A stretch of 1,235 bases of DNA from Naegleria gruberi (Eukaryota): assembly GCA_000004985.1 (NCBI GenBank), contig GG739487.1. The stretch is one strand, 5' to 3'. Every line of letters begins with the position of its first letter. Within the stretch, counting starts at the first letter, position 1. Under the pieces are notes generated by a model. It saw nothing but the letters and a program-made list of their open reading frames with translations, searched no databases and was not told where the DNA came from. Of the stretch, positions 1-1,235 are shown in pieces. The translations under genes and the position numbers were made by a program.

Positions 1-306
1 CTTTTTGTTGCTTCTATTATCATACATAGCAGTGATATAATTCCATCAAACTTATTCCTCCATTGCGATTGGAGCGAATGTAAGTCTGAACACTTTCCGC
101 CATACCCTAACTAGTTTTTAATAACTTAGCTGGTAGTGTATACAATTTGAGTTCGACAAGTGGTTATTGCTCTCGCCTATCTCCATTCAAAAGGAATGGT
201 CCACAGAGATTTGAAACAAACCAATATTTTCATTGCAAAATCTCCAGAAAACCCTCAATCTTCATCAAAATGGAATAATGATTTTTTATGGTCTTTCTTT
301 TCATAA
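1..306 (+). pseudogene. Protein-kinase catalytic-domain remnant (subdomains about V to VIb, then a degenerate DFG-like 'DFL'). It is truncated at TAA 304-306 with no activation segment or C-lobe. Either a kinase pseudogene or an exon fragment; 5'-partial.
   Basis: Frame 1 from 151 to 303 translates to VRQVVIALAYLHSKGMVHRDLKQTNIFIAKSPENPQSSSKWNNDFLWSFFS*. ALAYLHSKGMVHRDLKQTN is the kinase helix-E/catalytic-loop signature (HRDLKxxN at 202-225). Frame 1 from 1 to 79 (…LFLHCDWSE) joins in phase 1 across a GTAAGT…TTTGAG intron (80-151). That gives …DWSEFRQVVIALAYLHS…, which matches the usual '…FSE..AR…QI..AL.YLHS' spacing. The ORF stops 27 residues after HRD-N with only 'KWNNDFLWS' in place of 'K..DFGLS', and the convergent gene begins 18 nt later, so no remaining kinase exons can follow in this window. 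Confidence 0.55.
80..151 (+). other. Putative spliceosomal intron (GTAAGT … TTTGAG), phase 1, in the kinase-like gene
   Basis: There is a canonical dictyostelid donor GTAAGT at 80-85. Frame 1 is closed in between by TAG 112-114, TAG 127-129 and TGA 148-150, but it reopens exactly in the kinase frame when 79 is joined to 152 (t|tt = Phe). An alternative acceptor TTAG at 126-129 is phase-compatible only with frame 3, which loses the HRD frame. Confidence 0.4.
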
Positions 307-313
307 AATTCAA

Positions 314-319
314 TTTATT
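314..319 (-). terminator. Putative polyadenylation signal AATAAA for the minus-strand gene, 5 nt downstream of its TAA
   Basis: + strand 'tttatt' at 314-319 reads AATAAA on the minus strand. The minus strand reads TAA-tgtaa-AATAAA-ttgaatttt. This is a motif match only and lies in an AT-rich context. Confidence 0.4.
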
Positions 320-324
320 TTACA

Positions 325-1235
325 TTATTCTTTTCTCTTCTTTAAAATTGATCTAAAATCTACTTGTTGAGCTTCACCAGCACTATTAGCAGTAACAGCA
401 GCACCACTTGTTGGAGTAGAAGGTGTTGATGATACAGATGATGGTGGTGTTGTTGTTACTGGTGTTGTAGTTGTGGTTGATTTAATAGGTGGTGGTGTTG
501 TTACTGGTGTAGTAGTAGAAGTTGGAGTAGTAGTATTTGATGTTTTGTTTTTGAGTTGAGATCTAAAATCAACTTGTTGAACTCCTCCACCACCAGTAGT
601 AGCAGTAGTAGATGGAGGTGGATTGGATGGTTTTGATGGTGGAATTTCATTCTTTTTATCTTGTACAACTTGAACAGATGGTGGTGAAGTATTTGATTGA
701 TCTTCTGTCTTTTTCTTTAAATTTGATCTAAAATCAACTTGTGTACCACTTCCTGTATTATTATTAGTATTAGGTGAAGTAGTAGTTCTAGTTGTTGTTG
801 ATGGTGGTGGAGTAATAGTATTATTATTATTACTCTTAGTAGTATCAATTGAAGATGGTTGAGTGGTAGAAGAAGAAGATGGTTGATCTTTCTTTTTTAA
901 ATTAGATCTAAAATCAATTTGACCACTTGAAGGAGTATTAACACTATTACTTGTATTACTTGTATTAGTATTAATAGTATTAATAGTATTTGGTGAAGTA
1001 GCAGAAGTATTTAAATTACTTGTAGATTCCTTCTTTTTCAATGCAGATCTAAAATCAACTTGTTGAACACTTCCTCCTCCAACTGATGATGATGATGTAT
1101 TATCATTTGATTGAGTATCATCTTGTTGAGTTTTCTTTAATCTCATTTCAGATAATACTGATTGTGAAATTGCAACACTTAATCTTCTATTAGCATCATT
1201 TGTTACTGACACTGATGATGGTGATGTTATTGCTG
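325..1235 (-). CDS. C-terminal portion (5'-partial in window) of a Ser/Thr/Asn/Pro-rich low-complexity protein with 5 (+1 degenerate) copies of a QQVDFRSxLKKK motif and a polybasic KKRKE C-terminus. Family not recognised.
   Basis: A single uninterrupted minus-strand frame from the window edge to TAA at 327..325, more than 300 codons in an AT-rich genome where random open frames are short. The 'M' at 1212 in the ORF track is GTG (plus-strand 'cac' at 1210-1212), and the frame stays open upstream (…AITSPSSVSV…) to 1235, so the start lies outside the window. Codon usage is strongly biased (AGA, GGT, ACT/ACA, TCA, AAT). The motif is conserved at regular spacing across divergent linkers, which argues for selection on the protein. 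Confidence 0.8.
   Translation of the reverse strand, partial: AITSPSSVSVTNDANRRLSVAISQSVLSEMRLKKTQQDDTQSNDNTSSSSVGGGSVQQVDFRSALKKKESTSNLNTSATSPNTINTINTNTSNTSNSVNTPSSGQIDFRSNLKKKDQPSSSSTTQPSSIDTTKSNNNNTITPPPSTTTRTTTSPNTNNNTGSGTQVDFRSNLKKKTEDQSNTSPPSVQVVQDKKNEIPPSKPSNPPPSTTATTGGGGVQQVDFRSQLKNKTSNTTTPTSTTTPVTTPPPIKSTTTTTPVTTTPPSSVSSTPSTPTSGAAVTANSAGEAQQVDFRSILKKRKE
331..369 (-). repeat. Motif copy 5 (C-terminal): QQVDFRSILKKRK, followed by E-stop
   Basis: + strand core 'gatctaaaatc' at 350-360. The protein ends KKRKE with TAA at 327..325. Confidence 0.85.
544..579 (-). repeat. Motif copy 4: QQVDFRSQLKNK (aa 212-223)
   Basis: + strand core 'gatctaaaatc' at 560-570. It shares 24 identical nt with copy 1 and is preceded by GGGGVQQ (copy 1 has GGGSVQQ). 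Confidence 0.85.
709..741 (-). repeat. Motif copy 3: QVDFRSNLKKK (aa 158-168)
   Basis: + strand core 'gatctaaaatc' at 725-735, followed by 'aacttg' as in copies 1 and 4. Confidence 0.85.
889..921 (-). repeat. Motif copy 2: QIDFRSNLKKK (aa 98-108)
   Basis: + strand core 'gatctaaaatc' at 905-915. D-F-R-S uses the same codons (GAT TTT AGA TC) as the other copies. Confidence 0.85.
946..990 (-). repeat. In-frame coding microsatellite: imperfect 9-nt tandem units encoding NTINTINTNTSNTSN
   Basis: + strand has 'tacttgtat tacttgtat' then 'tagtattaa tagtattaa tagtatt' at about 946-1000, a 9-nt periodicity that keeps the frame. This is typical of Asn/Thr-rich dictyostelid coding repeats. Confidence 0.7.
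1030..1065 (-). repeat. Motif copy 1: QQVDFRSALKKK (aa 50-61 of ORF-track numbering)
   Basis: The + strand has the core 'gatctaaaatc' at 1036-1046. The 24-nt 'agatctaaaatcaacttgttgaac' at 1035-1058 is identical to copy 4 (559-582). It is preceded by GGGSVQQ. Confidence 0.85.
1129..1164 (-). repeat. Possible degenerate sixth (N-proximal) copy: QSVLSEMRLKKT
   Basis: It aligns without gaps to the consensus Q-x-V-x5-L-K-K-[KT]. Q, V and LKK are retained, and the ending LKKT resembles the beta-thymosin 'LKKT' signature. The DFRS core is replaced. Confidence 0.4.

What the first reader, a model, noticed from the sequence alone, without database searches (positions are those of the whole stretch)
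1..306. Truncated protein-kinase remnant (…ALAYLHSKGMVHRDLKQTNIF…) lying tail-to-tail against the repeat-protein gene
A textbook catalytic-loop segment (YLHS…HRDLK..N) is present in plus-strand frame 1. It connects in phase to upstream coding through a GTAAGT intron. The ORF then ends after a degenerate 'DFL' with no activation loop, APE or C-lobe, and the neighbouring convergent gene starts 18 nt past its stop. This is most simply a decayed or truncated kinase pseudogene, of the kind produced by segmental duplication in dictyostelids. The alternative is a short expressed kinase-like fragment. Its residual ORF integrity from the window edge through the intron is notable for a pseudogene.
Basis: partly seen in the sequence, partly recalled or inferred. 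Interest (0 to 1): 0.5.

Follow-up and report, generated by a model that had tools for sequence, protein, structure and literature searches.

The report
Truncated Naegleria-type receptor-kinase gene remnant
The window holds one recognisable exon of a protein-kinase gene whose only close relative is a Naegleria gruberi receptor kinase; it is cut off just before the magnesium-binding motif by the end of a neighbouring gene, so it is most likely an ordinary dead gene fragment.

Summary
The kinase catalytic-loop segment is real (Pfam Pkinase E=3.7e-9). The interpretation needs three corrections.

(1) The source is not dictyostelid. An exhaustive search of 1.84 billion proteins found one close relative, Naegleria gruberi NAEGRDRAFT_74151. 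It is a 1395-aa NHL/EGF-ectodomain receptor with a complete kinase domain, 78% identical over nt 151-288 (E=3e-22). The window's 33% GC matches N. gruberi.

(2) 'NNDFL' is not a decayed DFG. It is conserved family sequence after a family-specific insert. The true DFG equivalent (GDWG) lies 5 residues further on and is absent, as is the whole C-lobe in all six frames.

(3) The upstream 'exon' (1-79) carries no detectable kinase or parental homology, although a GTAAGT/AG configuration like this arises in only 0.3% of shuffles.

Best reading (~0.6): a 3'-truncated, catalytically dead remnant of a receptor-kinase paralogue. Whether it is transcribed, and what lies upstream, cannot be tested here.

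In passing: the neighbouring gene carries five near-verbatim copies of the vertebrate MLCK F-actin-binding motif (QQVDFRSxLKKK). That is more interesting than the remnant itself.

The parts
1..79 (+). Candidate upstream exon A (frame +1, LFVASIIIHSSDIIPSNLFLHCDWSE plus 1 nt). Its coding status and kinase origin are unproven.
   Evidence: The frame is open from the window edge. There is no similarity to the matching part of P0003 (p=0.64). It adds no gain to a kinase-profile score when spliced to exon B (43.8 vs 44.1 bits; 90% of shuffled controls score at least as high). Its best profile placement is the catalytic loop itself (IIHsSDIIPSNLFLH; about 0.8 bit, 1.3% of shuffles reach it). Pfam and PDB return nothing at E<=10.
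80..151 (+). Candidate 72-nt intron: GTAAGT donor at 80-85, CTAAC branch-like element at 107-111, AG acceptor at 150-151, phase 1.
   Evidence: The frame +1 read-through has three stops (112-114, 127-129, 148-150) and no homology to P0003 (p=0.81). A consensus donor that is phase-compatible with this acceptor and preceded by a frame open to the window edge occurs in 150 of 50000 shuffles. GC is 36%.
152..288 (+). Exon B homology block, covering kinase helix alphaE, the catalytic loop (HRDLKQTN, 202-225), strand beta7, the family-specific insert (AKSPENPQSSSK-WNN) and the start of beta8 (DFL).
   Evidence: tblastn of P0003 residues 1218-1267 matches window 151-288 at 78% identity with one 4-residue gap, E=3e-22, and is the only significant HSP. 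phmmer gives 83% identity. Pfam Pkinase profile positions 104-134 are matched.
289..306 (+). Non-homologous ORF tail (WSFFS) and TAA stop at 304-306. The point of truncation relative to the parent is at 288/289.
   Evidence: P0003 continues LCVGDWGSSRHQH...SAPE...DIWSLG...DPASR for 128 more residues, and none of this is found in the window. The GT at 291 is a P0003-compatible donor, but about 10% of random tails give one too.
307..324 (.). An 18-nt, 11% GC spacer between the two convergent stop codons. It holds a minus-strand AATAAA at 319-314.
   Evidence: plus direct reading of the sequence. That the neighbour's 3'UTR runs into the kinase ORF tail is an inference.
325..1235 (-). Convergent neighbouring gene: an ORF of at least 302 codons that is open to the window edge. 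It is S/T/N/P-rich and carries five (Q)QVDFRSxLKKK motifs, with DFRSxL cores at 1056-1039, 915-898, 735-718, 570-553 and 360-343.
   Evidence: repeat families D3 and D5. GC3 is 6%. The motif matches the rabbit MLCK N75 actin-binding fragment.

Best explanation
Nt 152-288 is the surviving core exon of a paralogue (or diverged orthologue) of the Naegleria gruberi NHL/EGF-ectodomain receptor Ser/Thr kinase NAEGRDRAFT_74151. The copy is truncated inside strand beta8, 5 codons before the family's DFG equivalent (GDWG). The reading frame runs 5 unrelated codons to a stop and then straight into the 3' end of a convergent gene.

The locus lacks the Mg-binding Asp, the activation segment, APE, helix alphaF and the rest of the C-lobe, so it cannot encode a folded, active kinase. 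It is a gene relic left by a partial duplication, deletion or rearrangement whose breakpoint lies at about nt 289.

Shown: the homology, its sharp limits, the absence of downstream kinase sequence and the stop codon. Inferred: that the relic is non-functional, that the GTAAGT...AG intron was (or is) real, and that the host genome is a Naegleria.
For: - Only one close relative exists among 1.84 billion representative proteins: P0003, 83% identical including the idiosyncratic insert. It is N. gruberi XP_002670873.1. No other hit shares the HRDLKQTN...PENPQSSSK...WNNDFL signature.
- P0003 has a complete kinase domain (Pfam profile 1-259 of 263) behind teneurin-like NHL and EGF modules. The window matches only profile positions 104-134.
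- tblastn of full-length P0003 finds one HSP, nt 151-288, E=3e-22, and nothing else in any frame.
- The ORF stops at 304-306. A minus-strand ORF of at least 302 codons occupies 325-1235, and plus-strand ORFs there are at most 39 aa.
- The window GC of 33% equals N. gruberi's 33%, against 35-36% in N. fowleri (PMC8296547).
- The splice configuration is unlikely by chance (0.3%), consistent with derivation from an intron-containing gene.
Against: - There is no in-frame stop or frameshift inside the 46-codon homology block. Its single indel is in frame (12 nt), and the 21-residue catalytic-loop stretch is identical to P0003. Recent origin or continuing constraint therefore cannot be told apart.
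- The upstream exon shows no parental homology, which is odd for a simple recent duplicate.
- No flanking sequence could be obtained: the window is absent from the metagenome, viral and prokaryotic contig collections, and P0003's locus is not on record. Upstream integrity and downstream exons therefore remain untested.
- Expression is untested.
Confidence: 0.6

Rival explanations
1. The region is kinase debris rather than one spliced gene. Nt 1-111 would be a second, older and more degenerate catalytic-loop-to-DFG scrap (IIHsSDIIPSNLFLHCDWSECKSEHF, with the catalytic R and K lost). It would sit upstream of the better-preserved exon-B scrap, and the GTAAGT would be fortuitous.
For: The only placement of exon A on a kinase profile is the catalytic loop, and the score is reached by just 1.2-1.3% of shuffles. 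The post-hoc pattern D[LIVM]xPxN[LIVMF]3 occurs in 1 of 20000 shuffles. Exon A gives no gain as an alphaD/alphaE segment.
Against: The score is only about 0.8 bit. Pfam and PDB searches return nothing at E<=10. There is no internal similarity to exon B at protein (p=0.20) or DNA (p=0.52) level. The GTAAGT/phase/open-frame configuration is itself improbable by chance (0.3%).
Confidence: 0.13
2. The gene is expressed and truncated. Exon B would be the terminal coding exon of a transcribed gene, for example an NHL/EGF receptor with a crippled kinase stub acting as a decoy or scaffold, or a chimeric gene that captured a kinase exon.
For: The ORF is intact from the window edge through a consensus donor and acceptor to a stop. 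The catalytic loop is perfectly conserved and the only indel is in frame.
Against: A kinase domain ending inside beta8 lacks helix alphaF and the hydrophobic core of the C-lobe, so it is unlikely to fold (established kinase structural knowledge). Exon A has no recognisable domain. No identical or near-identical annotated protein exists in the 15-billion-protein collection.
Confidence: 0.12
3. The gene is not truncated. Exon B would be an internal exon with its donor at 291 (TTA TG|GTCTTT, giving DFL-C as in P0003's DFLLC). The DWG-to-C-terminus exons would lie beyond nt 1235, across an intron of more than 945 nt that hosts the antisense gene.
For: The homology block is bounded by AG on the left and GT (291) on the right, and the 'TG' fits the parent's Cys codon.
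Against: About 10% of random tails give an equally compatible GT. GTCTTT is far from the GTAAGT seen at nt 80, and intron-poor genomes tend to keep strong donor consensus (general knowledge, not tested here). The N. gruberi average intron is 203 bp, whereas this one would exceed 945 nt and contain a whole antisense gene whose AATAAA lies about 25 nt from the donor.
Confidence: 0.08
4. The arrangement is an assembly or chimeric join near nt 289-324 between a Naegleria kinase gene and an unrelated gene, so the truncation is an artefact.
For: There is a sharp compositional discontinuity: GC3 is 6% in the minus ORF against 27-31% in the kinase pieces. Homology ends abruptly at 288.
Against: Overall GC is the same on both sides (34% vs 33%). 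The very low GC3 is expected for an S/T/N/P/Q-rich low-complexity ORF that uses A/T-ending codons. There is no repeat or junction signature at the join.
Confidence: 0.05
5. It is a dictyostelid GCN2-like (IfkA/B/C) kinase pseudogene produced by segmental duplication. This combines the first reader's framing with the GCN2 top hits in the PDB.
For: The best PDB hits are GCN2. The neighbouring ORF has an S/T/N-rich, A/T-ending codon style.
Against: The GCN2 similarity is only the generic catalytic loop (at most about 60% identity over about 30 aa). The N. gruberi receptor kinase is 78-83% identical and shares the insert. P0003 has NHL/EGF and TM modules and no RWD or HisRS-like domains. The Dictyostelium kinome paper reports no GCN2-family pseudogene. 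The 36% GC intron is unlike D. discoideum introns (my own knowledge).
Confidence: 0.02

Closest known systems
Naegleria gruberi predicted protein NAEGRDRAFT_74151 (XP_002670873.1 / EFC38129.1 / UniProt D2VYK3), 1395 aa
   Same: It is 78-83% identical over 46-50 residues (alphaE to the start of beta8). The shared features are the unusual HRDLKQTN catalytic loop and the insert AK(A/S)PENPQSSSK...WNNDFL between beta7 and beta8.
   Different: P0003 is complete: signal sequence and ectodomain with teneurin-like NHL and EGF modules, a TM segment, and a full kinase domain with GDWG, SAPE, DIWSLG and DPASR. The window lacks everything after DFL, lacks 4 residues (SILE) of the insert, and its upstream exon is unrelated to the corresponding P0003 sequence.
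Protein-kinase pseudogenes of Dictyostelium discoideum (Goldberg et al. 2006, PMC1420674)
   Same: It is the same kind of object: a kinase-derived locus with a truncated ORF, where gene finders would mask the defect by truncating the ORF or introducing introns, and which retains the parental intron-containing structure.
   Different: The organism and the family differ. No frameshift or nonsense codon lies inside the conserved block here. The defect is loss of the whole 3' half.
GCN2 / eIF2-alpha kinases (PDB 8t7t, 1zyc)
   Same: The catalytic-loop flavour is similar (xFRQxxxALxYxHSxGxxHRDLKxxNIFI), and these are the top PDB matches.
   Different: The similarity is restricted to about 32 generic residues. 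The extension across the splice junction (W..F) adds no score over shuffled controls. The nearest full-length relative has a receptor architecture, not RWD, pseudokinase and HisRS-like domains.

Membership tests
Eukaryotic protein kinase domain (Pfam PF00069) | Catalytic loop HRDLKxxN (subdomain VIb) | tested here: met
   HRDLKQTN is at nt 202-225. Pfam Pkinase E=3.7e-9, 36.8 bits against a cutoff of 31.7.
Eukaryotic protein kinase domain (Pfam PF00069) | DFG (Mg-binding Asp, subdomain VII) | tested here: not met
   The ORF stops 5 codons before the position of the homologue's GDWG. 'NNDFL' aligns to the homologue's NNDFL, not to its DFG equivalent.
Eukaryotic protein kinase domain (Pfam PF00069) | Activation segment, APE, alphaF and C-lobe (subdomains VIII-XI) | tested here: not met
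   tblastn of full-length P0003 (word size 2, E<=100) finds nothing beyond nt 288 in any frame. Only profile positions 104-134 of 263 are matched.
Eukaryotic protein kinase domain (Pfam PF00069) | N-lobe: Gly-rich loop, VAIK Lys, alphaC Glu | not testable with these tools
   These would lie upstream of nt 1, and no flanking sequence could be retrieved.
NAEGRDRAFT_74151-type NHL/EGF receptor kinase (Naegleria) | Signature HRDLKQTN plus the beta7-beta8 insert AKxPENPQSSSK...WNNDFL | tested here: met
   78% identity, E=3e-22. The signature is unique among the 150 best hits from 1.84 billion proteins.
NAEGRDRAFT_74151-type NHL/EGF receptor kinase (Naegleria) | NHL/EGF ectodomain, TM segment and collinear hinge/alphaD sequence upstream | tested here: inconclusive
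   The ectodomain and TM segment lie outside the window. The 26 codons upstream of the intron show no similarity to P0003's hinge/alphaD region (p=0.64).
GCN2 / PEK eIF2-alpha kinase family | Closest relatives are GCN2-type, with RWD, pseudokinase and HisRS-like domain context | tested here: not met
   The closest relative is a receptor kinase with NHL/EGF modules and none of those domains. The GCN2 hits cover only the generic loop.
Pseudogene (duplicated, non-processed) | Clear homology to an intact parental-type gene together with a disabling lesion | tested here: met
   Homology is shown. The lesion is a premature end at 304-306, with at least 128 C-terminal kinase residues missing.
Pseudogene (duplicated, non-processed) | Neutral evolution or lack of functional expression | not testable with these tools
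   This needs the parental DNA for dN/dS, plus RNA-seq. Neither was available.
MLCK-type DFRxxL F-actin-binding motif (neighbouring gene) | Repeated DFRxxL motif with a basic tail | tested here: met
   There are five copies of (Q)QVDFRSxLKKK. Rabbit MLCK N75 reads SPQQVDFRSVLAKKG and TPDFRSVLGSKKK (PMC4586593). The alignment z-score is 3.6.
MLCK-type DFRxxL F-actin-binding motif (neighbouring gene) | Binds F-actin, one actin monomer per motif | not testable with these tools
   This is a biochemical property (PMC2196421).

The most novel reading that the evidence does not exclude
The stub is not dead. It would be the 3' end of an expressed, naturally truncated NHL/EGF receptor paralogue (a kinase-dead decoy). 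Its transcript would converge on, and overlap, the 3'UTR of the DFRxxL actin-binding-motif gene, so the two would regulate each other through antisense overlap.
Probability: 0.08. Interest if true: 0.4.

Novelty: new member of a known kind. Interest (0 to 1): 0.2.

Why it matters
As a truncated kinase relic it matters little. It would add one pseudogene or gene fragment to an uncharacterised, apparently Naegleria-restricted receptor-kinase lineage (teneurin-like NHL/EGF ectodomain, HRDLKQTN loop, GDWG in place of DFG).

The practical value is as a cautionary annotation case.

The more useful lead is the neighbour: five near-verbatim vertebrate MLCK DFRxxL actin-binding motifs in a protist protein. 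In the papers found here, the motif appears only in an MLCK context.

Tried and rejected
- Word-indexed homology searches with the spliced peptide, the neighbouring ORF and P0003's kinase domain found nothing close. They did not even return P0003, so that index is incomplete for this lineage and its negatives carry little weight.
- Exact look-ups of four possible gene-caller products and of P0003 found nothing on record.
- Scans of the metagenome, viral and prokaryotic contig collections found no copy or close relative, so no flanks could be obtained.
- Idea: the 'intron' is decayed coding sequence masking stops, as in the Dictyostelium pseudogenes. Rejected: the frame-1 read-through has no similarity to P0003 (p=0.81).
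- Idea: a frameshifted DFGLS (gatttt[ttat]ggtctttct). Rejected once P0003 showed NNDFL is conserved and the DFG equivalent is GDWG further on.
- Idea: the GCN2 alignment across the junction (W..FRQ) proves the splice. Rejected as evidence: exon A adds no profile score over shuffles.
- Idea: nt 1-111 is an internal duplicate of exon B. Rejected (p=0.20 and 0.52).
- Idea: a GCN2/Ifk family pseudogene of Dictyostelium. Rejected.
- The Rfam scan gave only sub-threshold low-complexity hits.
- Literature searches for Naegleria splice-site consensus and kinome data gave nothing usable.

Full report
**What is in the window**

- The 1235-nt window is about 33% GC throughout.
- On the plus strand, frame 1 is open from nt 1 to a TAG at 112-114. 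It is open again from nt 151 to a TAA at 304-306.
- The second stretch reads VRQVVIALAYLHSKGMVHRDLKQTNIFIAKSPENPQSSSKWNNDFLWSFFS.
- A consensus GTAAGT sits at 80-85 and an AG at 150-151. Joining 1-79 to 152-306 preserves the frame.
- On the minus strand, an ORF of at least 302 codons runs from the right edge to a stop codon at 327-325. That leaves an 18-nt spacer of 11% GC.

**Is it a kinase, and which one?**

- The peptide passes Pfam's Pkinase gathering score (E=3.7e-9), but only over profile positions 104-134 of 263.
- The best solved structures are GCN2 kinases. This initially suggested a dictyostelid Ifk/GCN2 relative.
- The word-indexed protein searches found nothing.
- The exhaustive HMMER search of 1.84 billion representative proteins with nt 151-303 gave one outstanding hit, P0003. 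It is 83% identical in a single stretch covering query residues 1-47.
- P0003 is Naegleria gruberi NAEGRDRAFT_74151 / XP_002670873.1.
- Its 1395 residues comprise teneurin-like NHL and EGF modules, a hydrophobic transmembrane-like stretch (read by eye from the sequence), and a complete kinase domain covering Pfam profile positions 1-259 of 263.
- It reads ...LVLEIIKQIASALDYLHSKGMVHRDLKQTNIFIAKAPENPQSSSKSILEWNNDFLLCVGDWGSSRHQH...SAPE...DIWSLG...DPASR.
- None of the other 149 best hits shares the HRDLKQTN loop or the insert.
- The nearest indexed kinases to P0003's domain are only about 32% identical.

The 78-83% match is therefore specific. Together with 33% GC (N. gruberi 33%, N. fowleri 35-36%; PMC8296547), it points to a Naegleria genome and not a dictyostelid. 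The Dictyostelium kinome paper also says its 15 kinase pseudogenes all derive from Dictyostelium-specific families, apart from akt2_ps (PMC1420674).

**Where the homology starts and stops**

- tblastn of full-length P0003 against the window gives a single significant HSP: nt 151-288, frame +1, 39/50 identities, one 4-residue gap, E=3e-22.
- It begins exactly at the proposed acceptor and ends right after NNDFL.
- In P0003 the next residues are LCVGDWG. 'NNDFL' is therefore the end of a family-specific insert of roughly 17-21 residues plus the start of strand beta8. It is not a decayed DFG.
- The DFG equivalent (GDWG) would come 5 residues later.
- The window instead reads WSFFS-stop. No trace of the remaining 128 residues (activation segment, APE, alphaF-alphaI) is found in any frame.
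- A product ending here lacks the Mg-binding Asp and the core of the C-lobe. From established kinase structure it cannot be an active or stably folded kinase domain.

**The upstream 'exon' and the intron**

The evidence here is mixed.

For a real splice:
- A consensus GTAAGT, phase-compatible with the only acceptor that keeps exon B in frame and preceded by a frame open to the window edge, occurs in only 150 of 50000 shuffles.
- A CTAAC branch-like element lies at 107-111.

Against kinase coding continuing upstream in register:
- Exon A has no similarity to the corresponding hinge/alphaD/alphaE part of P0003 (p=0.64).
- It adds nothing to a kinase-profile score (43.8 bits spliced versus 44.1 for exon B alone; 90% of shuffled-exon-A controls score at least as high).
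- The GCN2 alignment across the junction (W..FRQ) is therefore not evidence.

The 'intron' read in frame has three stops and no parental similarity (p=0.81), so it is not masked decayed coding sequence.

Oddly, exon A's only placement on the kinase profile is the catalytic loop itself (IIHsSDIIPSNLFLH). The score is tiny, yet only about 1.3% of shuffles reach it. It is not a duplicate of exon B, and Pfam and PDB see nothing.

Three readings of nt 1-150 remain open:
- a real but fast-diverged exon plus intron;
- an older, degenerate kinase scrap;
- all intron, with the true upstream exon lying beyond nt 1. In that case a split codon a|tt would give Ile, as in P0003.

**Could the gene continue downstream?**

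- A GT at 291 would give ...DFL + TG|, compatible with P0003's Cys. About 10% of random tails give an equally compatible donor.
- GTCTTT is a poor match to the GTAAGT seen at nt 80.
- Such an intron would have to exceed 945 nt and contain an entire antisense gene, in a genome whose average intron is 203 bp.
- Plus-strand ORFs across 325-1235 are at most 39 aa.

I rate this rival at about 8%.

An assembly chimera is suggested by one result only: the striking codon-composition break, with GC3 of 6% in the neighbour against 27-31% in the kinase pieces. That break is expected for an S/T/N/P/Q-rich low-complexity ORF, and overall GC is equal on both sides.

**Best explanation**

This is a 3'-truncated, catalytically dead remnant of a Naegleria-type NHL/EGF receptor-kinase gene. 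One recognisable exon is preserved, and its breakpoint at about nt 289 abuts the 3' end of a convergent gene. A minus-strand AATAAA at 319-314 implies that the neighbour's 3'UTR runs into the stub's tail (inference).

The block has no internal stops and an in-frame indel, and its catalytic loop is identical to the parent's. With only 46 codons and no parental DNA, this cannot separate recent origin from selection.

Confidence is about 0.6. Most of the remainder goes to variants of the same picture (tandem debris, or an expressed stub) rather than to an intact kinase.

**What could not be done**

- The window and its relatives are absent from the metagenome, viral and prokaryotic contig collections.
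- Neither the window's products nor P0003 are on record in the contig index.
- As a result, upstream and downstream sequence, the parental exon structure, dN/dS and expression are all untested.

**Novelty and interest**

This is an ordinary kind of object (a gene relic) in an under-annotated lineage, and the interest is low (0.2).

The neighbouring gene deserves its own look. It has five (Q)QVDFRSxLKKK motifs spaced 47-70 residues apart. They are almost identical to the DFRxxL F-actin-binding motifs of vertebrate MLCK: rabbit N75 reads SPQQVDFRSVLAKKG and TPDFRSVLGSKKK (PMC4586593; function in PMC2196421; alignment z=3.6). Every DFRxxL paper in the searchable library concerns MLCK, and the sequence-string searches turned up no non-MLCK report of the motif.

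Noticed in passing
window 325-1235 (minus strand); DFRSxL cores at 1056-1039, 915-898, 735-718, 570-553, 360-343: The convergent neighbour encodes an S/T/N/P-rich protein with five copies of (Q)QVDFRSxLKKK spaced 47-70 aa apart. These are nearly identical to the DFRxxL F-actin-binding motifs of vertebrate smooth-muscle/non-muscle MLCK (rabbit N75: SPQQVDFRSVLAKKG, TPDFRSVLGSKKK). There is no Pfam match, and the searchable literature has no report of the motif outside MLCK. It is probably a multivalent F-actin-binding protein of an amoeboid protist.
   Followed up: partly
window 1-306 versus 325-1235: Codon composition changes sharply. The neighbour has GC1/2/3 of 0.35/0.57/0.06 (CAA 18/18, AGA 10/10). 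The kinase pieces have a nearly flat profile (exon B 0.41/0.35/0.27, exon A 0.38/0.35/0.31). Overall GC is equal on both sides. Low-complexity amino-acid bias probably explains it, but a chimeric join is not excluded.
   Followed up: partly
window 19-63 (frame +1), extending to 111 if read through the GTAAGT: Exon A reads IIHSSDIIPSNLFLH, which resembles a degenerate kinase catalytic loop (H-x-D-h-x-P-x-N-h-h-h with the R and K lost). Read on, CKSEHF follows at roughly the VKIGDFG spacing. The kinase-profile score is about 0.8 bit and only about 1.3% of shuffles reach it. It is not similar to exon B.
   Followed up: partly
window 314-319 (minus strand AATAAA), 5 nt after the neighbour's stop at 327-325: A canonical poly(A)-signal hexamer for the neighbouring gene lies in the 18-nt spacer. 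Its 3'UTR and cleavage site would then overlap the tail (289-306) of the kinase ORF on the other strand. Whether Naegleria uses this signal was not checked.
   Followed up: no
P0003 (N. gruberi XP_002670873.1), residues about 1245-1275: The parental-type kinase has an unusual active site: HRDLKQTN (Q-T in place of the usual P-x), an insert of roughly 17-21 residues between beta7 and beta8, and GDWG in place of DFG. This sits behind a teneurin-like NHL/EGF ectodomain. Its nearest indexed kinase relatives are only about 32% identical.
   Followed up: partly
P0001 (2179 aa, highest-scoring hit): This protein contains nine tandem partial kinase-core repeats (alphaE to catalytic loop to DLG, e.g. 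...QQDVVMALEQLHKRGLLHSDLKDDNILI...KISDLGL...). It is an unrelated example of tandemly repeated kinase fragments inside one gene model.
   Followed up: no
window 378-472 (+) and 379-449 (-): There is a sub-threshold Rfam match to mir-194 (27.7 bits against a gathering score of 52) inside the low-complexity coding repeat. It is most likely a chance match.
   Followed up: no
tool behaviour: The word-indexed protein search returned neither P0003 for a query sharing 21 consecutive identical residues with it, nor P0003 itself when queried with its own kinase domain. Negatives from that index are therefore unreliable for this lineage.
   Followed up: yes
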